From Trypanosoma brucei (Eukaryota), in contig CM000207.1 in assembly GCA_000002445.1 (NCBI GenBank), positions 1,216,001 through 1,280,000 of the forward strand: a DNA stretch of 64,000 nt. The letters are read 5' to 3'. The translations under genes were made by a program, and so were the position numbers. This document shows positions 33,017 through 56,503 of this stretch, piece by piece. The first letter of the stretch is position 1. The number at the start of each line of letters is the position of its first letter. The notes below the pieces were generated by a model. The model had not been told where the DNA came from. It saw only the letters and a program-made list of their open reading frames with translations, and made no database searches.

Positions 33017-33310
33017 TTATTGAGTTGGTTGCTGCTCACTTTGACACTGTGTAAAGATTTCCCATGCCCATTTACATGGTGCCGCATTGCCTTCATTTGC
33101 TTCCAAACATTTTGCATAAGTTTGGACATGAGCTGCACAGGCACCGTTACCAACTTGTTGTGCCACCTGTTGCAACTCAGTGGGTTGTGCAGGCGGGGCA
33201 TTGCGGTCGAAGAGCATATGTGAAATGCCGTGGCCAATGACGGAACCGGCTGCAACTGATGCCACATTTCCAAGGAGACCGCTACCCATTCCACCACGCA
33301 GCACGTACAC
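33017..33310 (-). pseudogene. N-terminally truncated CHCH-domain copy in array unit 2.
   Basis: The track start is GTG (33308-33310 reads cac). The conserved helix and twin Cx9C are intact. Confidence 0.6.
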
Positions 33311-35263: not shown

Positions 35264-35359
35264 TATTAATTCACATAGTGGAAAGAAATCTCTGCTGATA
35301 CTGACAGATTAATAAGTAAGAAAAGATACGAACCCAACATATTTTATTTCCATAACTGT

Positions 35360-36208: not shown

Positions 36209-36330
36209 ATTGTTAGTTCACACTATATATCCTTCAAACACTTTCTTGTCCTTGTTAACAAATACATATACCCAAACCAAATGAAATAATAGCAACAGTG
36301 AGTGTTAACTATAGTGACAGCAGCTTCTTT

Positions 36331-36351
36331 TCTTACCTTACCTTACCTTAC
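36331..36351. repeat. (CTTAC)4 pentanucleotide microsatellite, present in every array unit just upstream (on the minus strand) of the type A gene.
   Basis: cttaccttaccttaccttacc at 36331-36351. Equivalent tracts occur near 42135, 47880 and 53610. Confidence 0.8.
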
Positions 36352-38804
36352 CGTGGCACTGAATCTGCTTCCTCATTGACACACGGCACAATGGCAAGAC
36401 ACAAATAAACTTAAAACTAAAAATTAACAAAAAATATATATGTGATCCAAATACAAAATAGGTACAACAACATGTGCATTCAAATGCAAACCTAACTCAG
36501 AAAAAATACACGAAATAAATGAACACATGTATTCCGATTAGCACACGCATATATGAATATCCTTTGTCAAAGTCAGTTAACAGTTTTTTCCCTTAGCAAT
36601 CCTTATTCCATCCCCGCATGTCTTAAATTCTATTTCCCACAGCCTACAACACATATCAGATGCGCTACCACTTCTATCCTAGTGCCACAAACTCACATTA
36701 ATCAAATTTCCTTCGTCACACCTCTTTCCTCTGCACGCAGTTAGAGTTCAACAAACGCAGCAGCATCATAACTCTAGAAATGCCGGTAATGCGATTAGTC
36801 TCAAGAACAAACAATTAATACTAACGGGCTGCATCTCTCACTACAATCCACATAACAACACACCCCATGAAATATGAGAACTTTTGGTGACATTATATCG
36901 TTTAGCATTTCCTACCAACATTCAAAAGGATTTGCCACACATCACAATTAGTTACTGTATATTATAAAGCATCGTGAAATGGTGTAGCAGTACGAGAAAA
37001 GGGGAGTCTCTAGTCCCTCTCCCGTAACTTCATCATTTCAATAAATGCTAACAGTATTCACGACCCCATACAAAAAACAAGGAACAACAACATATGGGAT
37101 ATTTTACTGAATCCCACTCTCTACACATCACAGTGTAACCTGAAATGCACTCTTCACTTCGAGCTGCAGTAAACATGATAATTCCCATAATGCTCAATGA
37201 AAAGATAACAGAAATATATAACATATGATAGGTAATACATGATATATATTCCAGCACTTTTGTTGCTATTCCCAGAGATTCAACATTTTAGGAAACAAAA
37301 TATACAGAATCAACATTACTCCAATTGTATCAGCCTAACAAGACACTGAATTGAGGAAATTGTGTGAAACTTAAGTACTGGAAATGCGAGATATCATAAA
37401 CATTCCACGATTGGACTCAATGAAAACAAATGCAATCTTAAAGTTAGTATAACTAATGCATGGAATGACTGGAATTGTTGGAAATGAAGAATTTAATATA
37501 ACTAAAAAAAAATAATAGTATTTTCATCCGATATGGGAGCAAATATGATAGAATACCACAACAGTAATCTCAGTAGTTGAGATGCCAATAACACAGTTAA
37601 GTCACAGTTGCAGCATAAACACTTCTGGAAAGACTCCATAAAGGGAAAGAAAACTAATCATATTTCGAAGACTCAATTAGGCGTGGAAGAGAAACGGCAA
37701 CTGGTACAAAATAAATGTAACTGCAGGAACGCAGTGACTCCAAGTGGACATAAACCTAAGGAACTGATGTGAAACCTCATCTCCTGAATCTTATTAGTAA
37801 TGTGTAAACAAAAAAAGAAAGCAAAGAATCATTACACTCAATGCTTCTGTCACTACATATTTTGAATGTTTGTAAGTAAGCTAAGCTATTATATTGTGCG
37901 TATATTTATATTTTTTCTTTCCTTACCAAAAGAGTAAGGAATAAGGAGAGCGTATTCAAAGGAAAGATACTGAAGTGTAGTAGTGAAAATAACAACTCTT
38001 GCAGCAACTGAAAGAGCAGTGAGGGCACAAATGAATATGCTCATGCAATGCCTTCAACTTCACGCACGTTTAGCATAATATGAGTTACAGAGGCATCACT
38101 TAGTAGAAAAAAATAATAAAGCGTGGAAAAATAAAAATAATAATAATAATAGTAATAGTGGTAATCGTAATACCAAAGAAAGAAAGAGGTTATAGGGGTG
38201 GCAATAATAGTAACAAATTTACTATATATGGAAAAGAAAGTGTCGTATTCTCGAAAGTAATAAAGAGAGTAGTAAGAAAATGAAGAAGTACAACACTGAA
38301 TATTTTACTGGTTGAAACTGATTCGAAGAGAGCATGATATCAATAGAGTTGTAGGTGCTTCTCAATTCAGTAAAATGGTTGCGGCCACACTAATATGTCT
38401 TCCCTCTCATGCACAAACTCTCCTTCCTTTCCTCTTTTTGTTTCTTACTCATATGCCTTCATTTCCATCTGATCTTCTTTATTCTCACATTTCTAAACCT
38501 TCACATCACTTCGTTACAAAATCACTCGAATCTCGAACTACCAGTTCTCATAAATGCACCATGTCGTGTAAAACTTTTCCATGAGACCAGAAAAAATATT
38601 GACAAGAGGAGTGATACAATCATTCACTGGTTAGAGGCCACACTCGCAACAATGGAAAGAAATAAATGAGAAGTAAAAAGAAGGACAAAGCGAAAAACAA
38701 ATTATAGGGAGACAGTAACTCTTCCATTTCTCCTCCATTGCCTCAATATATCTTTTTCTTTCCTTTGTCTCTACAAACATTTGCTCCTTTCCCATACTGA
38801 TAAT

Positions 38805-39182
38805 TTATTGAGTTGGTTGCTGCTCACTTTGACACTGTGTAAAGGTTTCCCATGCCCATTTACATGGTGCCGCATTGCCTTCATTTGCTTCCAAACATTT
38901 TGCATAAGTTTGGACATGAGCTGCACAGGCACCGTTACCAACTTGTTGTGCCACCTGTTGCAACTCAGTGGGTTGTGCTGGCGGGGCATTGCGGTCAAAG
39001 AGCATATGTGAAATGCCGTGGCCAATGACGGAACCGGCTGCAACTGATGCCACATTTCCAAGGAGACCGCTACCCATTCCACCACGCTGCACGTACACAT
39101 TTATTACCTGAGGTTGCGGTTGCTGAGCAGTTGTCTGGTGTGTGTTTTGATGCTGTTGTTGCGGCAACGTTTCATGTGCCAA
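38805..39182 (-). pseudogene. N-terminally truncated CHCH-domain copy in array unit 3 (the track start is TTG).
   Basis: Retains QQHQNTHQTTAQQPQPQV of the ancestral linker. Upstream is junction sequence. Confidence 0.6.
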
Positions 39183-39954
39183 AGAAAATTAGGAAACACA
39201 TCCAATAAGTGCGTCTGCCACGAATATGTAAGGCTATGTGAAACTAAGACACATAAAAGGATCACTGCTTTCCATAGTTCCTGCATGAGCAGAGAATTGT
39301 TGGCACATAACATCTACTAACACTAGCCATACTGACAGCAACTTATTCCTCCTGCCCTCCATCCTTGCACACACACCTCACAGTAACCAGTAACACTTCA
39401 CAACTATTTTAAACATCTGGCTTATTGTCTCAACAAAAGTCAGAGGGTTAGTAACTTTCCTCGTGTCGCATGCGAGGTTGCTGCAAAATGCGAAGAGTTC
39501 CACCTTATCGCACACACATATCAAATACAAAGAGTAATAATTAAGTAATGTCGCGTAACTGTTTTAGTTATAATTCAACGTGAAGTGTTACGGATTCTAA
39601 TTCCTTTCAGATTGGAAACCGCAAACCATACAGTCCTGCTTCTTGTTACAAGTCAATTAGGACATGCTAATTGGATTCAACTTCAATTAATTCCGTCATT
39701 TGCAGGTAGCAATAACATCTATCCTAAGAATTGTTATTTGCATTTAAAGGGTGAAATTGAGTGCATTCAGATAAAACAAAATAAGACTCATAGCAACAGC
39801 AAAAAGAGACTCTTTAGGGTTTATGGCAAACACAATCAATGAACAAACACACTATACCATTAACACAATTAAATTCCAAATACTATAACACATGTATTCT
39901 GTTCCAAAAAGTTACAATAAGTATTATGGTAATCACATCATAAGATTATTCCGG

Positions 39955-40896
39955 TCAAATTAAAAAGCATAAAAATGAAATTAGAAGTGCAAATAGTTTT
40001 TCCATCATATCTACATTTTGGTTATAAGCATAAGCACCATCAAAGGGTTTCCTCCTCATGTAAGATAACATTGGTAGCAACATTGTATCATCAAGAAGGC
40101 ATTGCTCCCTGTGTGCTGCGGTAAGATTGAGCCATGAGTTTTCAAGATACTTGTTGTCAAGTTCCGCCTTTACACTGGGAGTGCTGTAACATGTTTCGGC
40201 AGAGCAAACACTGCAATTGTTTTTCTTTATTGCTTCCTCAAACATTTGTGTCGTCAAATTCAGCTGTTTCTTTAGGTCGTGGAGAGAAGCTTTTTTCTTT
40301 TTCAAGATTACTTTTTTGTGATTAGTGATATGATGTGTAATATTGTGATTGCATTGTTGCTTTACCTTCTCTATTTCATCTCTCTTTTCTCTGTTTGCTG
40401 TTTCGAGAGTTGCATTTGTTTGACTTTTGTCTCTTAACGTTTTTGGATCCTCGATACATGGTGGGTTTTTTTGCTTTGCTCCAGTGCTTTTTTTGTAATT
40501 TTCATTCTCGACCCCTAACTGCCGGAGTTTATCCTTCAATTTTTCAATTTTTTCTTTATGCACTCTTATTTGAGTTGCCACAGTACTGTCGCATAGATTT
40601 CCGCCCTCCACACTCTCTCGCAAAAGTTCGTGATTCTCGATTAAGTCTTTAAATGTTTTATCATTGCTACAACTCCAAACCTTTCCGCTTGTAAAATCAT
40701 TAGACGCATCGCAAAACATCCACTTTTTATCATTTCCAAAAAGTTTCTCCCCACCCTTCAAAACAAAACTCCTCGCATCATCGACGCCCTCCTCTCTGTA
40801 AACATCTTCCCTCTCTTTTATATAATAGCATGGATTATCATCCGCCCATATTGTTACGCAAGATATCAGCAACAACACTCCAAATAGTATTTGCAT
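39955..40896 (-). CDS. Array unit 3, type B: surface protein with a C-terminal hydrophobic tail.
   Basis: The track ORF starts at GTG (40959). The first ATG is at 40894-40896 (MQILFGVLLLISCVTIWADD, a signal peptide). C-terminus NCSVCSAETCYSTPSVKAELDNKYLENSW...LFALLISFLCFLI. Confidence 0.75.
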   Translation of the reverse strand: MQILFGVLLLISCVTIWADDNPCYYIKEREDVYREEGVDDARSFVLKGGEKLFGNDKKWMFCDASNDFTSGKVWSCSNDKTFKDLIENHELLRESVEGGNLCDSTVATQIRVHKEKIEKLKDKLRQLGVENENYKKSTGAKQKNPPCIEDPKTLRDKSQTNATLETANREKRDEIEKVKQQCNHNITHHITNHKKVILKKKKASLHDLKKQLNLTTQMFEEAIKKNNCSVCSAETCYSTPSVKAELDNKYLENSWLNLTAAHREQCLLDDTMLLPMLSYMRRKPFDGAYAYNQNVDMMEKLFALLISFLCFLI

Positions 40897-41172
40897 TTTT
40901 CTAATGCTCCTAGAGTAGATGATATGAAATAAAGCACGCGTATATATTTTCCATAACACATTTGCATAAGAGTTACAGAATTCACGATTAACATGGCGAA
41001 ACCAATTTTACCGATTCATGAAATGATATTATAATGATAATTAACCAAAATGTATGATATCCATAAAAAAATCCATTATTATTTCACATAGTGGTAAGAA
41101 ACAACTGCTTAAACTGACAGATTAATAAGTAAGAAAAGATACAAACCCAACATATTTTATTTCCATAACTGT

Positions 41173-42030
41173 TTACATGTTTTCATTATATTTTGAATGA
41201 TTCCCTTCAGTATCTTCATGTGACACCCCACATTTACCTCCTGATTTTGTCCATCCATCTTTTCCATATAGTTTATCCAACTCTTCCTTTATTTTCACAT
41301 CATCCCAGCAAGCTTCAGCGTCACATGAGGGACACTTATTAATTCCAAGTTCTTCTAGTTGCTGTTCCTTTAGTTCTATTGCTTTCATAACATTTTTGAT
41401 TTCTTCATCAATTTTTTCAAGTTCAATATCGTATTCCTTTTCCATATTTCGCTTAATATTTTCACACTCTGTCATTTCCTTTTCAATAAGAGAGTTCATT
41501 CGAGCACCTTCATTTATGATGTTCTGTATCTTGGTATCAGTATCTGTTATTTTTTCTATCTGATCTTGGCATTCCTGCTTTGTCTCCTGTGCTTTTGCAC
41601 CCAATATCTCCAGGTTTTTATTTATCATATCTTGCTCCACAATTTTACTGCTCAGCTGTATCTCCTCATCCTTAATTCTTTGGATCTCTTCCAGCACCTT
41701 CTTTTTACAGGTAGTTACGCTGCTTACATCATTACTCCAATTGAATTTGTTAACGAGAGTTGTGGGTGTCCCATCAATAGAGGCGTCGCACATCCAAAAC
41801 ACTTTATTTGCTTCTCCCACCCTATTAGTGACGTTGCATATCATCCATTTGTGACGTCTACTCACGAAGTGATCACCATTTTCTATCACAGCCTCCATCA
41901 CTCCTTCCACCTCCTCCCTTCTCACCATACAGGTTTTGGCTTTCGACTCGCCAGTGAAAACCAACAATATCACTCCCGCCAATGATAAAAACATAAGTGT
42001 CCCATACTCTTTCATATTGTCACCTCGCAT
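41173..42030 (-). CDS. Array unit 3, type A: secreted coiled-coil protein.
   Basis: The track ORF starts at GTG (42048). ATGs are at 42028-42030 (MRGDNMKEYG...) and 42013-42015 (MKEYGTLMFLSLAGVILLVFTG). C-terminus KCPSCDAEACWDDVKIKEELDKLYGKDGWTKSGGKCGVSHEDTEGNHSKYNENM. Confidence 0.75.
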   Translation of the reverse strand: MRGDNMKEYGTLMFLSLAGVILLVFTGESKAKTCMVRREEVEGVMEAVIENGDHFVSRRHKWMICNVTNRVGEANKVFWMCDASIDGTPTTLVNKFNWSNDVSSVTTCKKKVLEEIQRIKDEEIQLSSKIVEQDMINKNLEILGAKAQETKQECQDQIEKITDTDTKIQNIINEGARMNSLIEKEMTECENIKRNMEKEYDIELEKIDEEIKNVMKAIELKEQQLEELGINKCPSCDAEACWDDVKIKEELDKLYGKDGWTKSGGKCGVSHEDTEGNHSKYNENM

Positions 42031-44562
42031 TATATATCCTTCAAACACTTTCTTGTCCTTACCATCAGATACACGTAAACAAAATGGAACAATAGCAACA
42101 GCGAGTGTTAATTATAGTGACAGCAGCTTCTTTTCTTACCTTACCTTACCTTACCGTGGCACTGAATCTGCTTCCTTATTAACATACTGCACCATCTCAA
42201 GACAGAAAATTGATACTAAAAATTAACAAAAAGAACATAGATGTGATCCAAATATCAAATAAAGCACCATCCACACACAAGCGCAAGCCTTTCACAGAAT
42301 AGATACACGAAATAAATGAACACACATTTTCTGATCATCACACGCATATGCATATCCTACATTAATTTCAGTTAACAGCTTTTGTCGTTAGCAATCCTTA
42401 TTCCATCCCCGTACGTCTTACACTCTATTTCCCACGGCCTACAACACATATCAGATGCGCTACCACTTCTATCCTACCACCACAAACTCACATTAATCAA
42501 ATCCCCTCCATTTTCTCTTCCCCGCACGCAATTAGGGTTCAGTAAACGCAGTAGCATCACAACTCTGGAGATGAGAAATGCGATCACCCTGAAGAACAAA
42601 CAATAGGTACTAACGGGTTGTATATAAATGGTCACAGCTTCGTACAACAACATCTCATGCAAAATGAAAACTAGTGATGGTACTGCACCTTTCAGCATTT
42701 CTTACCAACATTCAAAAGGATTTGGCGCACATCACAATTAGTTACTGTATATCGTAAAACACCGTCAAATTGTTGTACGAGAAAAAGGGAGTCTCTAGTC
42801 CCTCTCCCGTAACTTCATCATTTCAATAAATGCTAACAGTATTCATGACACCATACAAAAGACAAGGAACAACAACATATGGGAGATTTTACAGAATCCC
42901 ACTTCTACACATCACAGTGTAACCTGAAATGCACTCTTCACTTCGAGCTGCAGTAAACATGATAATTCCCATAATGCTCAATGAAAAGATAACAGAAATA
43001 TATAACATATGATAGTTAATACATGATATACATTCCAGCACTTTTGTTGCTATTCCCAGAGATTCTACATGTTAGGAAACAAAATATACAGAATCAACAT
43101 TACTCCAATTGCATCAGCCTCACAACACATTCGAGCGAGGGAATTGTGTAGAACTCAAGTACTGGAAATGTGAGATGCCATAAACATGTAACGATTAAAC
43201 TTGAAAACAAATGCAACCTGCAAGTAAGTATAACTAATGCATGGAATGACTGGAATTGTTGGAAATGAAGAATTTAATATAACTAAAAAGAATACGAGTA
43301 TTTTCACGCGATAATGAATAATACATGATAGAATAATTCAACAGTAATCTCAGTGGTTGAGATGCCAATAACACAGTTAAGTCACAGTTGCAGCATAAAC
43401 ACTTCTGGAAAGACTCCATAAAGGGTAAGAAAACTAATCATATTTCAAAGACTCAATTAGGCGTGGAAGAGCAACGGCAACTGGTACAAAATTAATGTAA
43501 CTGCAGGAACATAGTGACACCAAGTGGCCATAAACTCAAGGAACTGATGTGAAACCTCATCTCCTGAATCTTATTAGTAATGTGTAAAGAAAAAAGAAAG
43601 TAAAGAATCATTACACTCAATGCTTCTATCATTGCATATTTTGAATGTTTGTAAGCAAGCTAAGCTATTATATTGTGCGTATATTTATATTTTTTTTCCC
43701 CCTGGTAAAAGAGTAAGGAATGAGAAGAGCTTATTCAAAAGAAAAATACTGAAGTGTAGTAGTGAAAACAACAACTCTTGCAGCAACTGAAAGAGCAGTG
43801 AGCGTACAAATGAATATGCTCATGCAATGCCTTCAACTTCACGCACGTTTAGCATAATATGAGTTACAGAGGCATCACTTAGTAGAAAAAAATAATAAAG
43901 CGTGGAAAAATAATAATAATAATAATAGTGGTAATCGTAATACCAAAGAAATAGAGGTTATAGGGGTGGCAATAATAGTAACAAATTTACTATATATGGA
44001 AAAGAAAGTGTCGTATTCTCGAAAGTAACAAAGAGAGTAATAAGAAAAGGAAGAAGTGCAACACTGAATATTTTACTGGTTGAAACTGATTCGAAGAGAA
44101 CATGATATCAATAGAGTTGTAGGTGTTTCTCAATTCAGTAAAATGGTTGCGACCACACAAATATGTTTTCCCTCTCATGCACAAACTCTCCTTCCTTTAC
44201 TCTCTTTGTTTCTTACTCATATGCCTTCATTTTCTTATCTTTTTGTTCTCACTTTTCTAAACCTTCAATTCGCTTCGTTATAAAGCCACTCAAATCTCGA
44301 ACTACCAGTTTTGATAAATGCACCATGTCGAGTAAAACTTCCCCATGAGGACAGAAAACATGTTGACAAGAGGAGTGACATAATCATTCACTGGTTAGAG
44401 TCCACACTCGCAACAATGGAAAGAAATAAATCAGAAGTAAAACAACAAAGCGAAAAACATATTGTAGAGGCAGTAACTCTTCCATTCCTCCTCCATTGCC
44501 TCAATATATCTTTTTCTTTCTTTTGTCTCTACAAACATTTGCCTCTTTCCTATACTGATAAT

Positions 44563-44856
44563 TTATTGAGTTGGTTGCTGCTCACTTTGACACTGTGTAA
44601 AGGTTTCCCATGCCCATTTACATGGTGCCGCATTGCCTTCATTTGCTTCCAAACATTTTGCATAAGTTTGGACATGAGCTGCACAGGCACCGTTACAAAC
44701 TTGTTGTGCCACCTGTTGCAACTCAGTGGGTTGTGCAGGCGGGGCATTGCGGTCGAAGAGCATATGCGTAATGCCGTGTCCAATGACGGAACCGGCTGCA
44801 ACTGATGCCACATTTCCAAGGAGACCGCTACCCATTCCACCACGCAGCACGTACAC
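44563..44856 (-). pseudogene. N-terminally truncated CHCH-domain copy in array unit 4.
   Basis: Same as above. A few substitutions relative to the full copy (ITHMLF, QQVCNGA). Confidence 0.6.
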
Positions 44857-45699
44857 ATTTGTTACCTGAGGTTGCGGTTGCTGAGCAGTTGTCTGGTGTG
44901 TGTTTTGATGCTGTTGTCGTGTGCCAAAGAAAATTATGAAATATATCCAATAAGTGTTTCTGCAACGAATAAGTAAGGTTATGTGAAACTAAAACACATA
45001 AAAGGATCACTGCTTTCCATAGTTCCTGCATGAGCAGAGAATTGTTGGCACATAACATCTACTAACACTAGCCATACTGACAGCAACTTATTCCTCCTGC
45101 CCTCCATCCTTGCACACACACCTCACGGTAACCAGTAACACTTCACAACTATTTTAAACATCTGGCTTATTGTCTCAACAAAAGTCAGAGGGTTAGTAAC
45201 TTTCCTCGTGTCGCATGCGAGGTTGCTGCAAAATGCGAAGAGTTCCACCTTATCGCACACACATATCAAATACAAAGAGTAATAATTAAGTAATGTCGCG
45301 TAACTGTTTTAGTTATAATTCAACGTGAAGTGTTACGGATTCTAATTCCTTTCAGATTGGAAACCGCAAACCATACAGTCCTGCTTCTTGTTACAAGTCA
45401 AGTGGGACATGCTAATTGGATTCAACTTCAATTAATTCCGTCATTTGCAGGTAGCAATAACATCTATCCTAAGAATTGTTATTTGCATTTAAAGGGTGAA
45501 ATTGAGTGCATTCAGATAAAACAAAATAAGACTCATAGCAACAGCAAAAAGAGACTCTTTAGGGTTTATGGCAAACACAATCAATGAACAAACACACTAT
45601 ACCATTAACACAATTAAATTCCAAATACTATAACACATGTATTCTGTTCCAAAAAGTTACAATAAGTATTATGGTAATCACATCATAAGATTATTCCGG

Positions 45700-46641
45700 T
45701 CAAATTAAAAAGCATAAAAATGAAATTAGAAGTGCAAATAGTTTTTCCATCATATCTACATTTTGGTTATAAGCATAAGCACCATCAAAGGGTTTCCTCC
45801 TCATGTAAGATAACATTGGTAGCAACATTGTATCATCAAGAAGGCATTGCTCCCTGTGTGCTGCGGTAAGATTGAGCCATGAGTTTTCAAGATACTTGTT
45901 GTCAAGTTCCGCCTTTACACTGGGAGTGCTGTAACATGTTTCGGCAGAGCAAACACTGCAATTGTTTTTCTTTATTGCTTCCTCAAACATTTGTGTCGTC
46001 AAATTCAGCTGTTTCTTTAGGTCGTGGAGAGAAGCTTTTTTCTTTTTCAAGATTACTTTTTTGTGATTAGTGATATGATGTGTAATATTGTGATTGCATT
46101 GTTGCTTTACCTTCTCTATTTCATCTCTCTTTTCTCTGTTTGCTGTTTCGAGAGTTGCATTTGTTTGACTTTTGTCTCTTAACGTTTTTGGATCCTCGAT
46201 ACATGGTGGGTTTTTTTGCTTTGCTCCAGTGCTTTTTTTGTAATTTTCATTCTCGACCCCTAACTGCCGGAGTTTATCCTTCAATTTTTCAATTTTTTCT
46301 TTATGCACTCTTATTTGAGTTGCCACAGTACTGTCGCATAGATTTCCGCCCTCCACACTCTCTCGCAAAAGTTCGTGATTCTCGATTAAGTCTTTAAATG
46401 TTTTATCATTGCTACAACTCCAAACCTTTCCGCTTGTAAAATCATTAGACGCATCGCAAAACATCCACTTTTTATCATTTCCAAAAAGTTTCTCCCCACC
46501 CTTCAAAACAAAACTCCTCGCATCATCGACGCCCTCCTCTCTGTAAACATCTTCCCTCTCTTTTATATAATAGCATGGATTATCATCCGCCCATATTGTT
46601 ACGCAAGATATCAGCAACAACACTCCAAATAGTATTTGCAT
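45700..46641 (-). CDS. Array unit 4, type B: predicted protein identical to the unit 3 type B.
   Basis: The 334 aa track ORF is identical to 39955..40959, offset by exactly 5745 bp. Confidence 0.75.
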   Translation of the reverse strand: MQILFGVLLLISCVTIWADDNPCYYIKEREDVYREEGVDDARSFVLKGGEKLFGNDKKWMFCDASNDFTSGKVWSCSNDKTFKDLIENHELLRESVEGGNLCDSTVATQIRVHKEKIEKLKDKLRQLGVENENYKKSTGAKQKNPPCIEDPKTLRDKSQTNATLETANREKRDEIEKVKQQCNHNITHHITNHKKVILKKKKASLHDLKKQLNLTTQMFEEAIKKNNCSVCSAETCYSTPSVKAELDNKYLENSWLNLTAAHREQCLLDDTMLLPMLSYMRRKPFDGAYAYNQNVDMMEKLFALLISFLCFLI

Positions 46642-46917
46642 TTTTCTAATGCTCCTAGAGTAGATGATATGAAATAAAGCACGCGTATATATTTTCCATA
46701 ACACATTTGCATAAGAGTTACAGAATTCACGATTAACATGGCGAAACCAATTTTACCGATTCATGAAATGATATTATAATGATAATTAACCAAAATGTAT
46801 GATATCCATAAAAAAATCCATTATTATTTCACATAGTGGTAAGAAACAACTGCTTAAACTGACAGATTAATAAGTAAGAAAAGATACAAACCCAACATAT
46901 TTTATTTCCATAACTGT

Positions 46918-47775
46918 TTACATGTTTTCATTATATTTTGAATGATTCCCTTCAGTATCTTCATGTGACACCCCACATTTACCTCCTGATTTTGTCCATC
47001 CATCTTTTCCATATAGTTTATCCAACTCTTCCTTTATTTTCACATCATCCCAGCAAGCTTCAGCGTCACATGAGGGACACTTATTAATTCCAAGTTCTTC
47101 TAGTTGCTGTTCCTTTAGTTCTATTGCTTTCATAACATTTTTGATTTCTTCATCAATTTTTTCAAGTTCAATATCGTATTCCTTTTCCATATTTCGCTTA
47201 ATATTTTCACACTCTGTCATTTCCTTTTCAATAAGAGAGTTCATTCGAGCACCTTCATTTATGATGTTCTGTATCTTGGTATCAGTATCTGTTATTTTTT
47301 CTATCTGATCTTGGCATTCCTGCTTTGTCTCCTGTGCTTTTGCACCCAATATCTCCAGGTTTTTATTTATCATATCTTGCTCCACAATTTTACTGCTCAG
47401 CTGTATCTCCTCATCCTTAATTCTTTGGATCTCTTCCAGCACCTTCTTTTTACAGGTAGTTACGCTGCTTACATCATTACTCCAATTGAATTTGTTAACG
47501 AGAGTTGTGGGTGTCCCATCAATAGAGGCGTCGCACATCCAAAACACTTTATTTGCTTCTCCCACCCTATTAGTGACGTTGCATATCATCCATTTGTGAC
47601 GTCTACTCACGAAGTGATCACCATTTTCTATCACAGCCTCCATCACTCCTTCCACCTCCTCCCTTCTCACCATACAGGTTTTGGCTTTCGACTCGCCAGT
47701 GAAAACCAACAATATCACTCCCGCCAATGATAAAAACATAAGTGTCCCATACTCTTTCATATTGTCACCTCGCAT
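46918..47775 (-). CDS. Array unit 4, type A: predicted protein identical to the unit 3 type A.
   Basis: The 291 aa track ORF is identical to 41173..42048, offset by exactly 5745 bp. Confidence 0.75.
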   Translation of the reverse strand: MRGDNMKEYGTLMFLSLAGVILLVFTGESKAKTCMVRREEVEGVMEAVIENGDHFVSRRHKWMICNVTNRVGEANKVFWMCDASIDGTPTTLVNKFNWSNDVSSVTTCKKKVLEEIQRIKDEEIQLSSKIVEQDMINKNLEILGAKAQETKQECQDQIEKITDTDTKIQNIINEGARMNSLIEKEMTECENIKRNMEKEYDIELEKIDEEIKNVMKAIELKEQQLEELGINKCPSCDAEACWDDVKIKEELDKLYGKDGWTKSGGKCGVSHEDTEGNHSKYNENM

Positions 47776-50303
47776 TATATATCCTTCAAACACTTTCTTG
47801 TCCTTACCATCAGATACACGTAAACAAAATGGAACAATAGCAACAGCGAGTGTTAATTATAGTGACAGCAGCTTCTTTTCTTACCTTACCTTACCTTACC
47901 GTGGCACTGAATCTGCTTCCTTATTAACATACTGCACCATCTCAAGACAGAAAATTGATACTAAAAATTAACAAAAAGAACATAGATGTGATCCAAATAT
48001 CAAATAAAGCACCATCCACACACAAGCGCAAGCCTTTCACAGAATAGATACACGAAATAAATGAACACACATTTTCTGATCATCACACGCATATGCATAT
48101 CCTACATTAATTTCAGTTAACAGCTTTTGTCGTTAGCAATCCTTATTCCATCCCCGTACGTCTTACACTCTATTTCCCACGGCCTACAACACATATCAGA
48201 TGCGCTACCACTTCTATCCTACCACCACAAACTCACATTAATCAAATCCCCTCCATTTTCTCTTCCCCGCACGCAATTAGGGTTCAGTAAACGCAGTAGC
48301 ATCACAACTCTGGAGATGAGAAATGCGATTAGTCTGAAGAACAAACAATAGGTACTAACGGGTTGTATATAAATGGTCACAGCTTCGTACAACAACATCT
48401 CATGCAAAATGAAAACTAGTGATGGTACTGCACCTTTCAGCATTTCTTACCAACATTCAAAAGGATTTGGCGCACTTCCTAATTAGTTACTGTATATCGT
48501 AAAACACCGTCAAATTGTTGTACGAGAAAAAGGGAGTCTCTAGTCCCTCTCCCGTAACTTCATCATTTCAATAAATGCTAACAGTATTCATGACACCATA
48601 CAAAAGACAAGGAACAACAACATATGGGAGATTTTACAGAATCCCACTTCTACACATCACAGTGTAACCTGAAATGCACTCTTCACTTCGAGCTGCAGTA
48701 AACATGATAATTCCCATAATGCTCAATGAAAAGATAACAGAAATATATAACATATGATAGTTAATACATGATATACATTCCAGCACTTTTGTTGCTATTC
48801 CCAGAGATTCTACATGTTAGGAAACAAAATATACAGAATCAACATTACTCCAATTGCATCAGCCTCACAACACATTCGAGCGAGGGAATTGTGTAGAACT
48901 CAAGCACTGGAAATGTGAGATGCCATAAACATGTAACGATTAAACTTGAAAACAAATGCAACCTGCAAGTAAGTATAACTAATGCATGGAATGACTGGAA
49001 TTGTTGGAAATGAAGAATTTAATATAACTAAAAAGAATACGAGTATTTTCACGCGATAATGAATAATACATGATAGAATAATTCAACAGTAATCTCAGTG
49101 GTTGAGATGCCAATAACACAGTTAAGTCACAGTTGCAGCATAAACACTTCTGGAAAGACTCCATAAAGGGTAAGAAAACTAATCATATTTCAAAGACTCA
49201 ATTAGGCGTGGAAGAGCAACGGCAACTGGTACAAAATTAATGTAACTGCAGGAACATAGTGACACCAAGTGGCCATAAACTCAAGGAACTGATGTGAAAC
49301 CTCATCTCCTGAATCTTATTAGTAATGTGTAAAGAAAAAAGAAAGTAAAGAATCATTACACTCAATGCTTCTATCATTGCATATTTTGAATGTTTGTAAG
49401 CAAGCTAAGCTATTATATTGTGCGTATATTTATATTTTTTTTTCCCCTGGTAAAAGAGTAATGAATGAGAAGAGCGTATTCAAAAGAAAAATACTGAAGT
49501 GTAGTGGTGAAAACAACAACTCTTGCAGCAACTGAAAGAGCAGTGAGTGCACAAATGAATATGCTCATGCATGTCTATCAAAATGTGAGATACAGAGGCA
49601 TCACTTAGTAGAAAAAAATAATAAAGTGTGGAATAATAATAATAATAATAGTGGTAATCGTAATACCAAAGGAAGAAAGAAATAAAGACAGGTAATAATG
49701 GTGTGGCAATAATAGTAATAAATTTACTATATATGGAAAAGAAAGTGTCGTATCCTCGAAAGTAATAAAGAGAGTAATAAGAAAAGGAAGAAGTGCAACA
49801 CTGAATATTTTACTGGTTGAAACTGATTCGAAGAGAACATGGTATCAGTAGAGTTGTAGGTGCTTCTCAATTCAGTAAAATGGTTGTGACCACACAAATA
49901 TGTTTTCCCTCTCATGCACAAACTCTCCTTCCTTTACTCTCTTTGTTTCTTACTCATATGCCTTCATTTTCTTATCTTTTTGTTCTCACTTTTCTAAACC
50001 TTCAATTCGCTTCGTTATAAAGCCACTCAAATCTCGAACTACCAGTTTTGATAAATGCACCATGTCGAGTAAAACTTCCCCATGAGGACAGAAAACATGT
50101 TGACAAGAGGAGTGACATAATCATTCACTGGTTAGAGTCCACACTCGCAACAATGGAAAGAAATAAATCAGAAGTAAAACAACAAAGAGAAAAACAAATT
50201 ATATGGAAACACCAGCTTTCCCATTCCTCTCTTATTGCCTCAATATATCTTTCTTTCTTTCCTTTCTCCCTACAAACATTTGCCTCTTTCCTATACTGAT
50301 AAT

Positions 50304-50591
50304 TTATTGAGTTGGTTGCTGCTCACTTTGACACTGTGTAAAGGTTTCCCATGCCCATTTACATGGTGCCGCATTGCCTTCATTTGCTTCCAAACATTTT
50401 GCATAAGTTTGGACATGAGCTGCACAGGCACCGTTACCAACTTGTTGTGTTACCTGTTGCAACTCAGTGGGTTGTGCAGGCGGGGCATTGCGGTCGAAGA
50501 GCATATGTGAAATGCCGTGTCCAATGACGGAACCGGCTGCAACTGATGCCACATTTCCAAGGAGACCGCTACCCATTCCACCACGCTGCAC
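50304..50591 (-). pseudogene. N-terminally truncated CHCH-domain copy carried in array unit 5 (no ATG at the ORF start; an internal ATG exists at the GGMGSG Met).
   Basis: Identical to the 3' ~280 nt of 56057..56503. The track 'M' is a GTG. Upstream sequence diverges from the ancestral copy at the repeat junction (gttttgatg|...). Confidence 0.6.
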
Positions 50592-51442
50592 GTATACATT
50601 TGTTACCTGAGGTTGCGGTTGCTGAGCAGTTGTCTGGTGTGTGTTTTGATGATGTTAGTGTGTGCCGAAGAAAATTATGAAATATATCCAATAAGTGTTT
50701 CTGCAACGAATAAGTAAGGTTATGTGAAACTAAAACACATAAAAGGATCACTGCTTTCCATAGTTCCTGCATGAGCAGAGAATTGTTGGCACATAACATC
50801 TACTAACACTAGCCATACTGACAGCAACTTATTCCTCCTGCCCTCCATCCTTGCACACACACCTCACAGTAACCAGTAACACCTCACAACTATTTTAAAC
50901 ATCTGGCTTATTGTCTCAACAGGGATCAGAGGGTTGATGACATTCCCTCTGTCACAAGCGGGGTTATCGCGACGGTAAGTTATTTCATTTTATCCACACA
51001 TATATCAAATACAAAAAGTAATAATTAAGTGATGTCGCGTAACTGTTTTAGTCATAATTCACTGTGGAGTTTTGCGACCTTCAATTTCTTTCGAATTGCG
51101 AGTTGGAGGCCATACTGTTCCTGCTTCTTGTTGCAAGTCAATTAGGACATGTTAATTGGATTCATCCTCCATAAGTTCTGGCATTTGCAGGTAACAACAC
51201 CAGCATTATTTCTAAAAATTGTTATTTGCATTCAAAGAGTGAAATAGAGTGCATTTGGATAAAATAAATTAAGTCTCATAGCAACAGCAAAAAGAGACTC
51301 TTTAGGGTTTATTACAAACACATTCAATGAACAAACACACTATACCATTAACACAATTAAATTCCAAATACTATAACACATGTATTCTGTTCCAAAAAGT
51401 TACAATAAGTATTATGGTAATCACATCATAAGGTTATCACGA

Positions 51443-52378
51443 TTAAAGAAAAAAGCATAAAAATGAAATTACAAGTGCAAATAATTTTTCCATCATATCT
51501 ACATTTCGGTTATAAGCATAAGCACCATCAAAGGGTTTCCTCCTCATGTAAGATAACATTGGTAGCAACATTGCATCATCGAGAAGGCATTGCTCTCTCT
51601 GTGCCGCAGTAAGATTGAGCCATGAGTTTTCAAGATACTTGTTGTCGAGTTCCGCCTTTACACTGGGAGTGTTGTAACATGTTTCAGCAGAGCAAGCGGT
51701 GCAGCTGTTTTTGTTCATTTCCTCCTGTAGCTCCTGTGTTACTGTCTTTACTTGTTGTTTTAAATGGTTGAGAAGTGCAGCTTTTTTTTCCAATGCTACC
51801 TCTAGAGGAGCAGTGATTTCCTTAATGTCGCTGTTGCACTGTTGGTTCTTCCTCTTTATTTTGTTTTCTTTTTCGCGATTGTAGGCTTCAAGGGTTGTAA
51901 CGGTTGCATTCGAATTCTTTAATTTTGTGAGCAATTGCTTGCATTCATTACTTGCGTTCGTCTTCGTTGTGTGGTTCAGTTTGAGGAGCTCTGTATCAGC
52001 TTTCTTTTTGTCAAGCTCAGTTTGCAAATCCGTAACATTTTTCACCTGTATCTTCGTTTCGGTAGTTATTGTTTCGTTGCACAAGTCTCCCTTAACCACT
52101 TCATTTCGTAAAGACTCGTGATCCTCAACCAATTCATTTAGAGTTTTTTCGTTGCTGCAGTTCCAATAAAAGGAAACATTCCGCCGTCTTCGTTCCAACT
52201 CATCACAAAATATCCACTTCTTATCACTTTCAAAAAATTCCTCTCCACCCTTGGAAGAGAGAGCTTCCATTGATTTATTTTTTCCTTCCTCCATCCATTT
52301 TGTATAAGCGCAAGAATCAGCGCCTGCCCATTCATTTAAGCGAGAAATGAGCAACAAAACTCCAACTATCGTTCGCAT
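51443..52378 (-). CDS. Array unit 5, type B: surface protein with a C-terminal hydrophobic tail.
   Basis: ATG verified at 52376-52378 (MRTIVGVLLLISRLNEWAGADS). C-terminus SCTACSAETCYNTPSVKAELDNKYLENSW...LFALVISFLCFFL. Confidence 0.75.
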   Translation of the reverse strand: MRTIVGVLLLISRLNEWAGADSCAYTKWMEEGKNKSMEALSSKGGEEFFESDKKWIFCDELERRRRNVSFYWNCSNEKTLNELVEDHESLRNEVVKGDLCNETITTETKIQVKNVTDLQTELDKKKADTELLKLNHTTKTNASNECKQLLTKLKNSNATVTTLEAYNREKENKIKRKNQQCNSDIKEITAPLEVALEKKAALLNHLKQQVKTVTQELQEEMNKNSCTACSAETCYNTPSVKAELDNKYLENSWLNLTAAQREQCLLDDAMLLPMLSYMRRKPFDGAYAYNRNVDMMEKLFALVISFLCFFL

Positions 52379-52635
52379 TTTCTTAATGCCCCTACAGCAG
52401 ATGATATGAAATAAAGCACGCGTATATATTTTCCATAAAACATTTGCATAAGAGCAGCAATATTTCCACCCAAGAACAAAGCCAACTGTACCGATTCACA
52501 AAATGATATTATAATGATAATTAACTAACATGTATGATATTCATAAAAATTCCATTATTATTTCACATGATGGAAAGAAATCTCTGCTGATACTGACAGA
52601 TTAATAAGTAAGAAAAAATACAAACATAACATATT

Positions 52636-53508
52636 TTATTTCCATAACTGTTTACATGCTTCCGTAACATTTTTAATGATTTCCCTAAATACTTTTGGAT
52701 AACACTTCACGTTTGACCCCGCATTCATCCATCCATCTCTTCCATATAGTTTATCCAACTCTTCCTTTATTTTCACATCATCCCAACAGGTCTCACCATC
52801 ACATGCGGGACACTCTTTATTCAACATAAGCATTTTCAATTGCTGCTTCTTTAGCTCCAATGTCTTATTCACATTTCTGATTTCTTCGTCCATTTTTTCA
52901 AGTTTACATTCGTATTCTTCCATCGCTTCATACTTCCCGTTTTCGCACTCTCTTGTCTCTTTTTCCATAAGCGTGTCCAGTCGTGCACTTTCTTTCGTAA
53001 GGTTCCATATCTTACCGTCCTCCTTAGTAACTATTCCAACCTCCTTCCAACATTCCTGTTTTGCTTGATCTGCCTCCTCACTCTCTGCTCGAAGACGCTT
53101 ATGCTCATTTTCTTCGTCGCCAATCATCTTCCGGAGTTCCGCTGCCTCCTTCTCAAGGTTCTCCTTCTTCTCCTGCACTTTTGTTTTGCAAACAGTTATG
53201 TTACTTACCTCACTGCTCCAGCTAAGTTTCTTCATGATGATACTTGTGGGATGTTCATTATTTGAGGCATCACAAAACCACTTAATTTTATTTCTCTCCT
53301 CCTTTGTCCCGCTGCTGTTGCATACCATCCACATCGGCTCAGAGCTCATAAAGTAATGACCGTTATCGATTTCAGCCACAACATCTCCTTCTTTGCCTTT
53401 TAAAGTGCAAATATCCGCGTCCACCCTCCCAGTGAAAACCAACAATATCACTCCCGCCAATGATAAAAACATAAGTGTCCCATACTCTTTCATATTGTCA
53501 CCTCGCAT
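52636..53508 (-). CDS. Array unit 5, type A: secreted coiled-coil protein whose C-terminal tail differs from the other A copies (...DGWMNAGSNVKCYPKVFREIIKNVTEACKQLWK).
   Basis: The track ORF starts at TTG (53565). ATGs are at 53506-53508 and 53491-53493 (MKEYGTLMFLSLAGVILLVFTG). The conserved KECPACDGETCWDDVKIKEELDKLYGRDGW is followed by a divergent tail. This is caused by indels relative to the other units (compare 52636-52760 with 41173-41290). Confidence 0.7.
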   Translation of the reverse strand: MRGDNMKEYGTLMFLSLAGVILLVFTGRVDADICTLKGKEGDVVAEIDNGHYFMSSEPMWMVCNSSGTKEERNKIKWFCDASNNEHPTSIIMKKLSWSSEVSNITVCKTKVQEKKENLEKEAAELRKMIGDEENEHKRLRAESEEADQAKQECWKEVGIVTKEDGKIWNLTKESARLDTLMEKETRECENGKYEAMEEYECKLEKMDEEIRNVNKTLELKKQQLKMLMLNKECPACDGETCWDDVKIKEELDKLYGRDGWMNAGSNVKCYPKVFREIIKNVTEACKQLWK

Positions 53509-56056
53509 TATATATCCTTCAAACACTTTCTTGTCCTTGTTAACAAATACATATACCCAAACCAAATGGAATAATAGAAACAGCGAGTGTTAATTATAGT
53601 GACAGCAGCTTCTTTTCTTACCTTACCTTACCTTACCGTGGCACCGAATCTGCTTCCTTATTAACATACTGCACCATCTCAAGACAGAAAATTGATACTA
53701 AAAATTAACAAAAAGAACATAGATGTGATCCAAATATCAAATAAAGCACCATCCACACACAAGCGCAAGCCTTTCACAGAATAGATACACGAAATAAATG
53801 AACACACATTTTCTGATCATCACACGCATATGCATATCCTACATTAATTTCAGTTAACAGCTTTTGTCGTTAGCAATCCTTATTCCATCCCCGTACGTCT
53901 TACACTCTATTTCCCACGGCCTACAACACATATCAGATGCGCTACCACTTCTATCCTACCACCACAAACTCACATTAATCAAATCCCCTCCATTTTCTCT
54001 TCCCCGCACGCAATTAGGGTTCAGTAAACGCAGTAGCATCACAATTCTGGAGATTCCGGTAATGCGATCACCCTGAAGAACAATTAATATTAACGGGCTG
54101 CATCTCTCACTACAATTCCACATAACGACACACCCCATGAAATATGAGAACTTTTGGTGACATTATATCGTTTGGCATTTCCTACCAACATTCAAAAGGA
54201 TTTGCCACACATCACAATTAGTTACTGTATATCGTAAAACACCGTGAAATAGTGTAGCAGTACGAGAAAAAGGGAGTCTCTAGTCCCTCTCCCGTAACTT
54301 CATCATTTCAATAAATGCTAACAGTGGCTATAACCCCAAACAGAAAAAACAAGGAACAACAACATATGGGATATTCGACTAAATCCCATCTCTCTGCATC
54401 ACAGTGTCACCTGGAATGCATCTTTCACCTCGAGTTGAAGTAAACAAAATAATTCCTACAGTATCGAATGGAAATATAACAGAAATGCATAACATATGAT
54501 AGGTAATACGTAATACATATTCCAGCACTTTTGTCACTATACGCGGAGATCTGACATGTTGGGAAACAAAATATACAACATCAACATTACTCCAATTGCA
54601 TCAGCCTCACAATACACTCAAGTGAAAGAAATGTAGAACTCAAGTACTGGAAATGCGAGATATCATAAACTTGCCACAGTTAAACTCAGTGAAAACAAAT
54701 GCAATCTGGAAGTAAGTGTAACTAATGTATGGAATGACTGGAATTGTTGGAAATACAGAATTTAATATAACTAAAAATAATACGTGTATTTTCATGCCAC
54801 ACGGAATAAAAAATGTGATAGAATACAACAACAGTAACCACAGTGGCTGAAATTCAAATAACACAGTTAAGTCACAGTTGCAGCATAAACACTTCTGGAA
54901 AGACTCCATAAAGGGAAAGAAAACTAATCATATTTCAAAGACTCAATTAGGCGTGGAAGAGAAACGGCAACTGGTACAAAATTAATGTAACTGCAGGAAC
55001 ATAGTGACACCAAGTGGCCATAAACTCAAGCGCCTGATGTGAAACCTCACCTCCTGAATCTTATTAGTAATGTGTAAACAAAAAAAGAAAGCATAGAATC
55101 ATTGCACTCAATGCTTCCATCATTGCATATTTTGAATGTTTGTAAGTAAGCTAAGCTATTATATTGTGCGTATATTTATATATTTTCTTCCCCTGGTAAA
55201 AGAGTAAGGAATGAGAAGAGCTTATTCAAGAAAAATACTGAAGTGTAGTGGTGAAAACAACAACTCTTGCAGCAACTGAAAGAGCAGTGAGCGTACAAAT
55301 GAATATGCTCATGCAATGCCTTCAACTTCACGCACGTTTAGCATAATGTGAGATACAGAGGCATCACTTAGTAGAAAAAAATAATAAAGTGTGGAATAAT
55401 AATAATAATAATAGTGGTAATTGTAATACCAAAGAAATAGAGGTTATAGGGGTGGCAATAATAGTAACAAATTTACTATATATGGAAAAGAAAGTGTCGT
55501 ATTCTCGAAAGTAATAAAGAGAGTAATAAGAAAAGGAAGAAGTGCAACACTGAATATTTTACTGGTTGAAACTGATTCGAAGAGAACATGGTATCAGTAG
55601 AGTTGTAGGTGCTTCTCAATTCAGTAAAATGGTTGTGACCACACAAATATGTTTTCCCTCTCATGCACAAACTCTCCTTCCTTTCCTCTTTTTATTTCTC
55701 ACTCATATGCCTTCATTTCCTTATCTTTTTCTTTGTTCTCACTTTTCTAAACCTTCACATCACTTCGTTACAAAGCCACTCAAATCTCGAACTACCAGTT
55801 TTGATAAATGCACCATGTCGAGTAAAACTTCCCCATGAGGACAGAAAACATGTTGACAAGAGGAGTGACATAATCATTCACTGGTTAGAGTCCACACTCG
55901 CAACAATGGAAAGAAATAAATCAGAAGTAAAACAACAAAGAGAAAAACAAATTATATGGAAACACCAGCTTTCCCATTCCTCTCTTATTGCCTCAATATA
56001 TCTTTCTTTCTTTCCTTTCTCCCTACAAACATTTGCCTCTTTCCTATACTGATAAT

Positions 56057-56503
56057 TTATTGAGTTGGTTGCTGCTCACTTTGACACTGTGTAAAGGTTT
56101 CCCATGCCCATTTACATGGTGCCGCATTGCCTTCATTTGCTTCCAAACATTTTGCATAAGTTTGGACATGAGCTGCACAGGCACCGTTACCAACTTGTTG
56201 TGCCACCTGTTGCAACTCAGTGGGTTGTGCTGGCGGGGCATTGCGGTCGAAGAGCATATGTGAAATGCCGTGGCCAATGACGGAACCGGCTGCAACTGAT
56301 GCCACATTTCCAAGGAGACCGCTACCCATTCCACCACGCTGCACGTACACATTTGTTACCTGAGGTTGCGGTTGCTGAGCAGTTGTCTGGTGTGTGTTTT
56401 GATGATTATGTTGTTGTTGTTGATGTGGTGGTGGTGTTGTGCGTGCGGGTGAAGCCGCAGCGGCGGGGCGCGGAGATGAGGCTGAACGACGAGTGCGAGC
56501 CAT
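56057..56503 (-). CDS. Full-length twin-Cx9C CHCH-domain protein of the CHCHD2/CHCHD10/Mix17 type (mitochondrial intermembrane space).
   Basis: ATG verified at 56501-56503. Arg/Ser/Ala/Pro-rich N-terminus (MARTRRSASSPRPAAAASPARTT), then a Gln/His-rich linker. The conserved hydrophobic helix GMGSGLLGNVASVAAGSVIGHGISHMLF compares with human CHCHD2 AAGVAVGSAVGHTLGHAITGGF. Two Cx9C pairs: CAAHVQTYAKC and CKWAWETFTQC. Confidence 0.75.
   Translation of the reverse strand: MARTRRSASSPRPAAAASPARTTPPPHQQQQHNHQNTHQTTAQQPQPQVTNVYVQRGGMGSGLLGNVASVAAGSVIGHGISHMLFDRNAPPAQPTELQQVAQQVGNGACAAHVQTYAKCLEANEGNAAPCKWAWETFTQCQSEQQPTQ

What the first reader, a model, noticed from the sequence alone, without database searches (positions are those of the whole stretch)
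39955..51444. Units 3 and 4 are >99.9% identical over the full 5745 bp, indicating a very recent duplication or an unstable copy number
The type A and type B proteins of units 3 and 4 are identical and offset by exactly 5745 bp. Flanking ORFs differ at single residues, for example FFRVIAFLI versus FFRLIAFLI and NAITLKNKQ versus NAISLKNKQ. There are a few short patches of clustered differences, such as atcaccctg versus attagtctg near 42590/48335, which look like gene-conversion tracts. This implies ongoing unequal crossing-over. It also means the real copy number in the genome may differ from this assembly, either because repeats were collapsed or because copy number is polymorphic.
Basis: seen in the sequence. 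Interest (0 to 1): 0.5.

Follow-up and report, generated by a model that had tools for sequence, protein, structure and literature searches.

The report
Recent copy within trypanosome surface-gene array
Two neighbouring units of an already published five-unit tandem array of Trypanosoma brucei surface-protein genes share a nearly identical 4.4-kb stretch, the footprint of recent recombination inside the array; this is normal for such arrays and is not new.

Summary
The window is T. brucei brucei TREU927 chromosome 9. The finding lies in a five-unit (~5.75 kb each) tandem array at 27515-56404. All genes are on the minus strand. Each unit has a small CHCH-domain ORF, about 2.5 kb without ORFs, a type B gene and a type A gene. 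The A and B genes are the nine members of 'Family 7' (Tb927.9.7850-7950). The array was published by Jackson et al. 2010 (Fig. 2, Table 1): five copies in TREU927, one in T. b. gambiense, with an ingi element beside it.

The A and B proteins of units 3 and 4 are identical at an offset of exactly 5745 bp, and the quoted differences exist. Near-identity covers only 39250-43697 versus 44995-49442 (4448 bp, 10 mismatches, one perfect 2925-bp run).

A recent intra-array recombination event is clear, and mosaic blocks are significant in all ten unit pairs. Identity does not span a full period, and each unit's remaining ~1.2 kb holds private sequence. One long-tract gene conversion therefore explains it more simply than a new unequal-crossover duplication. 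Assembled copy number differs between subspecies (5, 2, 1). Verdict: real, ordinary, already known.

The parts
27515..56404 (-). Whole tandem array: five units of about 5.75 kb, plus a 75-bp remnant of a sixth unit head at 27515-27589. In my phase the units are U1 27515-33371, U2 33372-39161, U3 39162-44917, U4 44918-50656 and U5 50657-56404.
   Evidence: Self-BLAST, unit alignment, junction alignment. Matches Jackson et al. 2010 Fig. 2 and Table 1.
39250..43697 (-). Near-identical tract, copy in unit 3. It covers 0.7 kb downstream of gene A, gene A3, the A-B spacer, gene B3 and 1.65 kb of upstream ORF-free spacer.
   Evidence: Offset-5745 comparison: 10 mismatches in 4448 bp.
44995..49442 (-). 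Near-identical tract, copy in unit 4.
39660..42584 (-). Longest perfectly identical run (2925 bp). Its partner is 45405-48329.
   Evidence: Mismatch list at offset 5745.
39955..40896 (-). Type A gene of unit 3 (313 aa from the annotated ATG), Tb927.9.7900. It has a signal peptide and a C-terminal hydrophobic, GPI-signal-like tail.
   Evidence: 100% match to EAN76805/EAN76808. Coordinates match Rico et al. 2017 Table S2.
41173..42030 (-). Type B gene of unit 3 (285 aa), Tb927.9.7910. It is a paralogue of A (about 20% identity, 10 shared cysteines) and has no C-terminal hydrophobic tail.
45700..46641 (-). Type A gene of unit 4, Tb927.9.7930. Identical to the unit 3 copy.
46918..47775 (-). Type B gene of unit 4, Tb927.9.7940. 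Identical to the unit 3 copy.
42585..42588 (.). SNP cluster 1 (partner 48330-48333). The unit 3 state is shared with U1 and U5, and the unit 4 state with U2. This is compatible with a short conversion tract.
42731..42735 (.). SNP cluster 2 (partner 48476-48480). The unit 4 state is private, so no donor lies in this array.
39657..39659 (.). SNP cluster 3 (partner 45402-45404). The unit 3 state is shared with U5, and the unit 4 state with U1 and U2.
43698..44917 (-). Divergent 'head' of unit 3, holding the 5'-truncated CHCH-domain ORF 44563-44856 and its downstream spacer. It is a mosaic: 97-99% identical to U1 in places, with a stretch around 44330-44519 that is only 88-91% identical to every other unit.
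49443..50656 (-). Divergent 'head' of unit 4, holding CHCH ORF 50304-50591. It is 99-100% identical to U5 and U1 around 50064-50260. Around 49520-49870 it is 78-90% identical to every unit, with a private deletion of about 24 bp.
56057..56503 (-). Full-length CHCH-domain gene (148 aa) at the upstream end of the array. The repeat boundary (56404) lies about 33 codons into it.
   Evidence: Pfam CHCH and DUF2076 matches, both below Pfam's curated cut-offs. Junction alignment.
20767..26020 (+). ingi retroposon with frameshifted reverse-transcriptase, RNase H and zinc-finger ORFs and an A-rich 3' end. It lies 1.5 kb from the downstream end of the array and is absent from the DAL972 and IVM-t1 loci.
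   Evidence: Jackson et al. 2010.

Best explanation
Units 3 and 4 belong to the known five-unit Family 7 array of T. brucei TREU927 chromosome 9. Their 4.4-kb near-identity is the footprint of one recent homologous-recombination event inside the array. The event was most probably a long-tract, non-reciprocal gene conversion that copied one unit's B+A gene pair, with 1.65 kb of upstream and 0.7 kb of downstream non-coding DNA, over the corresponding part of the adjacent unit. Both end points lie in non-coding blocks that are conserved between all units and so supply the homology. A few later point changes and short conversion patches account for the 10 differences. Shown: the extent of the tract, the private sequence in both unit heads, significant mosaicism between all unit pairs, and differing unit numbers in other assemblies. 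Inferred: that the event was a conversion and not a crossover, and its direction.
For: The tract is 39250-43697 versus 44995-49442, with 10 mismatches in 4448 bp. The remaining ~1.2 kb of each unit is 82-99% identical between U3 and U4, and each holds a stretch unlike any other unit. A single unequal crossover predicts identity of U3's head with the head of U4 or of U2. Observed values are 0.82-0.99 and 0.87-0.97. The tract ends fall where all units are 88-100% alike (columns 1200-1600 and 5800-6000). A Sawyer-type permutation finds significant shared blocks in all 10 unit pairs, with p<0.0005 (0 of 2000 shuffles) for the longest run in each pair, for example 107 polymorphic sites shared by U3/U4 and U5 over about 390 bp. 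Two of the three SNP clusters carry states found in other units. Gene conversion and sequence mosaics in T. brucei tandem arrays, including in UTRs, are documented (PMC1855330; PMC2854126).
Against: The heads clearly undergo frequent short conversions. A whole-unit duplication followed by several patches could therefore give the same picture. No reads were available, so both the arrangement and the number of copies rest on one Sanger-era assembly. The permutation test assumes polymorphic sites are exchangeable along the unit, which rate heterogeneity violates.
Confidence: 0.55

Rival explanations
1. A recent unequal sister-chromatid or homologue crossover added a whole unit. Short gene conversions from other units then overwrote parts of the ~1.2-kb head.
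For: Assembled unit number differs between subspecies at 5, 2 and 1, so unit gain or loss does occur at this locus. Short conversion blocks are abundant in the heads. A 250-bp stretch inside the heads (44191-44440 versus 49928-50177) is still 100% identical.
Against: Identity does not span a full period. Both heads contain sequence that matches no other unit in the array, so conversion from resident units cannot have created them. At least three extra events are needed.
Confidence: 0.3
2. Assembly artefact: one unit, or the two alleles of a heterozygous unit, was placed twice in tandem in the Sanger-era assembly.
For: A 2925-bp perfect repeat is longer than a Sanger read. Jackson et al. [quoted passage not shown] The 0.22% difference is of the order one might expect between alleles. 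That last point is my own estimate and was not tested.
Against: The two copies have different heads, different junction sequences (a 12-bp indel and about 10 SNPs in the last 90 bp) and 10 internal differences. Two distinct sequence contexts therefore exist. The same layout is kept in the later TriTrypDB coordinates used by Rico et al. 2017, where A3 and A4 are also 5745 bp apart.
Confidence: 0.1
3. The identity reflects strong purifying selection on two old copies and not a recent event.
For: None specific.
Against: Non-coding spacer is as identical as coding sequence. All other paralogue pairs have dS of 0.6-1.5.
Confidence: 0.02

Closest known systems
The chromosome 9 segmental duplication of T. 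b. brucei TREU927 described by Jackson et al. 2010 (PLoS Negl Trop Dis 4:e658, Fig. 2 and Table 1; locus Tbg972.9.4160-4130)
   Same: It is the same locus. The paper reports a 5729-bp unit, three genes, five copies in TREU927 against one in T. b. gambiense, highly divergent second and third genes (51% and 59% nucleotide identity) and an adjacent ingi insertion. All of this was reproduced here.
   Different: The text I read does not single out the near-identity of units 3 and 4, although its figure, which is not held, may show it. It calls all copies of the first gene identical, whereas I find them 5'-truncated and of different ORF lengths. It treats the extra units as very recent and fast-diverging, whereas dS of 0.6-1.5 between cassettes suggests they are old.
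Family 7 (Fam7) of the African trypanosome cell-surface phylome (Jackson et al. 2013). It is regulated by REG9.1 and enriched in stumpy forms (Rico et al. 2017, PLoS Pathog 13:e1006279).
   Same: All nine listed Fam7 genes (Tb927.9.7850, 7860, 7870, 7880, 7900, 7910, 7930, 7940, 7950) map onto the A and B ORFs of this array by coordinates and length. The family is restricted to T. brucei.
   Different: Nothing differs. This is membership, not analogy.
Concerted evolution and allelic gene conversion in T. brucei tandem gene arrays (Jackson 2007, BMC Evol Biol 7:54), for example the BARP array
   Same: Coding sequence is more divergent than the UTRs and spacers, units are mosaics, and conversion tracts often lie in non-coding DNA (one search compared).
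   Different: Here one tract is unusually long at 4.4 kb and spans two genes.
Duplicative gene conversion of VSG cassettes
   Same: A variable coding cassette lies between conserved homology blocks and is copied non-reciprocally over a neighbour.
   Different: There are no 70-bp repeat arrays, the locus is chromosome-internal and transcribed by RNA polymerase II, and there is no sequence similarity to VSG. This is an analogy only.

Membership tests
Fam7 surface-protein family / Tb927.9.7850-7950 array | Sequence identity with the annotated TREU927 genes | tested here: met
   100% matches to EAN76800-76811. ORF coordinates equal the Tb927_09 coordinates of the Fam7 genes after a constant offset.
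Fam7 surface-protein family / Tb927.9.7850-7950 array | Restricted to the T. brucei clade | tested here: met
   The only hits are T. b. brucei, T. b. gambiense and T. equiperdum. A profile search of 1.84 billion representative proteins found only family members.
Fam7 surface-protein family / Tb927.9.7850-7950 array | Signal peptide plus a membrane anchor (GPI signal or transmembrane helix) | tested here: inconclusive
   An N-terminal hydrophobic segment is visible in both A and B, and a C-terminal hydrophobic tail in A only. No signal-peptide or GPI predictor was available.
Fam7 surface-protein family / Tb927.9.7850-7950 array | Stumpy-form enrichment and de-repression on REG9.1 knock-down | not testable with these tools
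   From the literature only: logFC 2.75-3.58 for A genes and 0.46-1.59 for B genes.
Tandem array under concerted evolution | Head-to-tail units on one strand with mosaic identity blocks between non-adjacent units | tested here: met
   All 10 unit pairs have p<0.0005 for the longest shared run.
Tandem array under concerted evolution | Unit number varies between strains | tested here: met
   5 units in TREU927, 2 in IVM-t1 and 1 in DAL972. Caveat: DAL972 is a reference-guided Sanger assembly, and IVM-t1 had only 7,508 PacBio reads.
Fresh unequal-crossover duplication | Near-identity across one complete repeat period | tested here: not met
   Only 4448 of 5745 bp are near-identical. The remainder is 77-100% identical in 250-bp bins and contains indels.
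VSG-type cassette conversion | 70-bp repeats upstream and VSG homology | tested here: not met
   Tandem Repeats Finder found no such repeats in the array. There is no VSG or other Pfam match.
ESAG6/7-like heterodimeric receptor | Adjacent paralogues, one with and one without a GPI signal | tested here: met
   A and B align at about 20% identity with 10 shared cysteines. Only A has the C-terminal hydrophobic tail.
ESAG6/7-like heterodimeric receptor | Homology to ESAG6/7, or demonstrated heterodimer formation | tested here: not met
   No sequence relatives outside the family. The AlphaFold model has pLDDT 50 and was unusable. Dimerisation cannot be tested here.

The most novel reading that the evidence does not exclude
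The Fam7 array may not be a very recent T. b. brucei-specific burst followed by fast divergence. It may instead be an old cassette system. Hypervariable ectodomain cassettes (dS 0.6-1.5 between units, and 0.23-0.29 even between the supposed TREU927 and gambiense orthologues) sit in flanks kept similar by conversion. The flanks act as recombination handles that let whole B+A cassette pairs be replaced, duplicated or lost. The unit 3/4 tract would then be one such replacement caught soon after it happened. The single unit in T. b. gambiense would reflect loss. The GPI-signal-bearing A and the tail-less B could form an ESAG6/7-style heterodimer on transmission-stage parasites.
Probability: 0.2. 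Interest if true: 0.45.

Novelty: already known. Interest (0 to 1): 0.15.

Why it matters
The array encodes the whole of Family 7. This T. brucei-restricted set of predicted surface proteins is switched on in the tsetse-transmissible stumpy stage. Gain, loss and replacement of its cassettes could change how different strains interact with host or vector. The near-identical pair matters in practice for anyone mapping short reads, designing RNAi or knock-outs, or counting family members. Tb927.9.7900/7930 and Tb927.9.7910/7940 cannot be told apart from coding sequence. As biology, the observation adds only detail to a published picture.

Tried and rejected
- Rfam at gathering thresholds and ARAGORN on the whole window found nothing. 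The 2.5-kb ORF-free spacer of each unit holds no known RNA family.
- tblastn of all A and B proteins against the window found no decayed extra copies in the spacers. blastn of the ingi region found no retroposon fragments inside the array.
- Pfam gave only sub-threshold coiled-coil noise for A and B. A profile search of PDB sequences gave only generic coiled coils with E >= 0.012.
- AlphaFold2 on a 12-sequence alignment gave pLDDT 50 and pTM 0.26. I ran no fold search, because matches to such a model would be meaningless.
- Exact-sequence look-ups of the TREU927 A3 and B3 proteins found no encoding contig. No independent assembly of this strain could be compared.
- The T. equiperdum OVI contigs break inside the array. 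They show at least two further A types but no unit count.
- Searches for accession numbers and Tb927.9.79xx identifiers in main texts found nothing. The identifiers turned up only in a supplementary table.
- My first guess, that these genes were ESAG9, was dropped. ESAG9 genes are listed as Family 2 at other loci.
Full report
**Identity of the window.** The two ORF types in the finding match Trypanosoma brucei brucei TREU927 proteins at 100%. These are EAN76805/EAN76808 for type A and EAN76806/EAN76809 for type B, on a 3.06-Mb contig. The ORF coordinates, after a constant offset, equal those of Tb927.9.7850-7950 on Tb927_09 as listed in Table S2 of Rico et al. 2017. There, these nine genes are labelled 'family 7'. 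The window is therefore chromosome 9 at about 1.27-1.33 Mb.

**Anatomy.** Self-BLAST and a unit alignment show a head-to-tail array from 27515 to 56404, made of five units of about 5.75 kb.
- In gene orientation (minus strand), each unit carries a small CHCH-domain ORF of about 97 aa, then about 2.5 kb without ORFs, then a type B gene of about 285 aa, then a type A gene of about 305-313 aa.
- A and B are paralogues. They share about 20% identity and 10 cysteines. Only A has a C-terminal hydrophobic tail.
- The repeat boundary lies about 33 codons into the full-length 148-aa CHCH gene at 56057-56503. The internal CHCH copies are therefore 5'-truncated.
- A 75-bp remnant of a sixth head sits at 27515-27589.
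- On the downstream side there is 1.5 kb of unrelated sequence holding a decayed retroposon-like piece, then a 5.2-kb ingi element at 20767-26020.
- The spacers contain no Rfam family, no tRNA, no decayed A or B copy and no retroposon fragment.

**Checking the observation.**
- The identical A and B proteins, the exact 5745-bp offset and every quoted difference are real.
- The claim of >99.9% identity over the whole 5745 bp is not correct.
- Near-identity is confined to 39250-43697 versus 44995-49442. That is 4448 bp with 10 mismatches, including a perfect run of 2925 bp.
- The other ~1.2 kb of each unit (the CHCH ORF and the spacer after it) is 82-99% identical in 200-column windows. It includes a deletion of about 24 bp private to unit 4.
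They are probably not genes.

**Pattern across the array.**
- Apart from units 3 and 4, the A and B coding cores are only 47-60% identical at the nucleotide level and about 50% at the protein level.
- The signal-peptide region, the last ~95 codons of A and the non-coding DNA are 75-100% identical.
- Different unit pairs are 98-100% identical in different short stretches. Examples are U3/U4 with U5 upstream of gene B, U4 with U2 over the 3' end of gene A, and U3 with U1 in the head.
- A Sawyer-type permutation of polymorphic sites gives p<0.0005 for the longest shared run in all ten unit pairs. The units are recombinant mosaics.
- Of the three SNP clusters inside the U3/U4 tract, two carry states present in other units, as expected for short conversion patches. 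One cluster is private to unit 4.

**Mechanism.** A single unequal crossover would leave a complete period duplicated. In that case U3's head would be identical to U4's or to U2's.
- Observed head identities are 0.82-0.99 and 0.87-0.97. Each head also contains a stretch unlike every other unit.
- One non-reciprocal conversion of about 4.4 kb explains the data with a single event. Its end points lie in blocks that are conserved between all units.
- A duplication followed by several patch conversions is possible but needs more events.
- The tract differs at 0.22%. Substitution divergence between TREU927 and T. b. gambiense in the flanking single-copy DNA is 0.96% and 2.9%. The event is therefore younger than that split.
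- An assembly artefact cannot be excluded without reads. However, the two copies have different heads, different junction sequences and ten internal differences.

**Other strains.**
- The T. b. gambiense DAL972 locus has a single unit, closest to U5, and no ingi.
- T. equiperdum IVM-t1 has two units with intact B and A ORFs. That assembly used only 7,508 PacBio reads.
- T. equiperdum OVI contigs break in the array. They encode two further A types, one of them only 59% identical to A3.
- No protein 90% or more identical to A3 or B3 exists elsewhere in the protein collection. No relative exists outside the T. brucei clade among 1.84 billion representatives.

**Literature.**
- Jackson et al. 2010 describe exactly this locus. 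It has a 5729-bp unit with three genes, five copies in T. b. brucei against one in T. b. gambiense, 51% and 59% nucleotide identity among the second and third genes, and an adjacent ingi. They warn that assembled repeat numbers can be arbitrary.
- Jackson 2007 documents conversion mosaics in T. brucei arrays, with coding sequence more divergent than UTRs.
- Rico et al. 2017 show that Family 7 mRNAs are enriched in stumpy forms and de-repressed when REG9.1 is depleted. The A genes respond more strongly than the B genes.

**One point where my data differ from the published reading.** Synonymous divergence between cassettes is 0.6-1.5, with dN/dS of 0.3-0.6. Even A5 against the gambiense 'orthologue' has dS of 0.23 (B5 0.29), ten or more times the flank divergence. 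This fits old cassettes in homogenised flanks better than a very recent burst followed by fast protein divergence. At this level of saturation the estimates are rough.

**Verdict.** The feature is real, but its extent was overstated. The mechanism is ordinary for trypanosome tandem arrays, and the locus is already published. Interest is low.

Noticed in passing
window 33017-33310, 38805-39182, 44563-44856, 50304-50591 versus 56057-56503: The internal CHCH-domain ORFs (97, 125, 97 and 95 aa) lack the first ~33 codons of the full-length 148-aa gene, because the repeat junction lies inside it. They have differing N-termini. Jackson et al. 2010 describe all copies of this gene as identical. Whether the truncated copies are functional is unknown.
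   Followed up: partly
window 27515-27589: There is a 75-bp remnant of a sixth unit head, 98.7% identical to 56330-56404. It ends abruptly at 27515 against unrelated sequence. The downstream end of the array looks truncated.
   Followed up: partly
window 26021-27514; L002 12778-14757: The 1.5 kb between the ingi and the array has no counterpart in DAL972 or IVM-t1. It includes a decayed ingi/RIME-like 5' signature around 26890-27060 and an A-run at 27233-27242. Conversely, about 2 kb of the DAL972 and IVM-t1 loci has no counterpart in the window. The rearrangement here is more than a simple ingi insertion.
   Followed up: partly
window 14647-20766 versus 56540-63461: Substitution divergence from T. 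b. gambiense is three times higher in the flank downstream of the array (2.9%) than in the upstream flank (0.96%).
   Followed up: no
window 51443-53565 (A5, B5) versus L002 10001-12045: The supposed orthologues of the gambiense genes have dS of 0.23-0.29. This is more than ten times the flank divergence, so they may not be strict orthologues.
   Followed up: partly
window, between 36208 and 39955: Window coordinates map to the Tb927_09 coordinates used by Rico et al. 2017 with offset 1,266,960 for units 1-2 and 1,266,956 for units 3-5. This implies a 4-bp difference between sequence versions somewhere in this interval.
   Followed up: no
window 28398-53565 (all A and B genes); literature: In the REG9.1 RNAi data, the five A genes rise by logFC 2.75-3.58, but the four listed B genes rise by only 0.46-1.59, although the two types alternate in one transcription unit. 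The fifth B gene (52636-53565) is not in the Family 7 list.
   Followed up: no
L003 171-1115 (T. equiperdum OVI): The A-type gene next to the downstream flank in OVI is a cassette type not present in TREU927, DAL972 or IVM-t1. Its best match is 59% to A3. The population pool of cassettes is therefore larger than any one genome shows.
   Followed up: partly
window 56729-56760: An (AT)16 microsatellite lies just upstream of the array.
   Followed up: no
window 3345-4310, 5700-8471, 8796-9692, 57269-57721: The neighbouring genes, all on the minus strand, are ordinary housekeeping genes: a tyrosine phosphatase family protein, a DENN-domain protein, spermidine synthase and a ubiquitin-conjugating enzyme.
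   Followed up: yes
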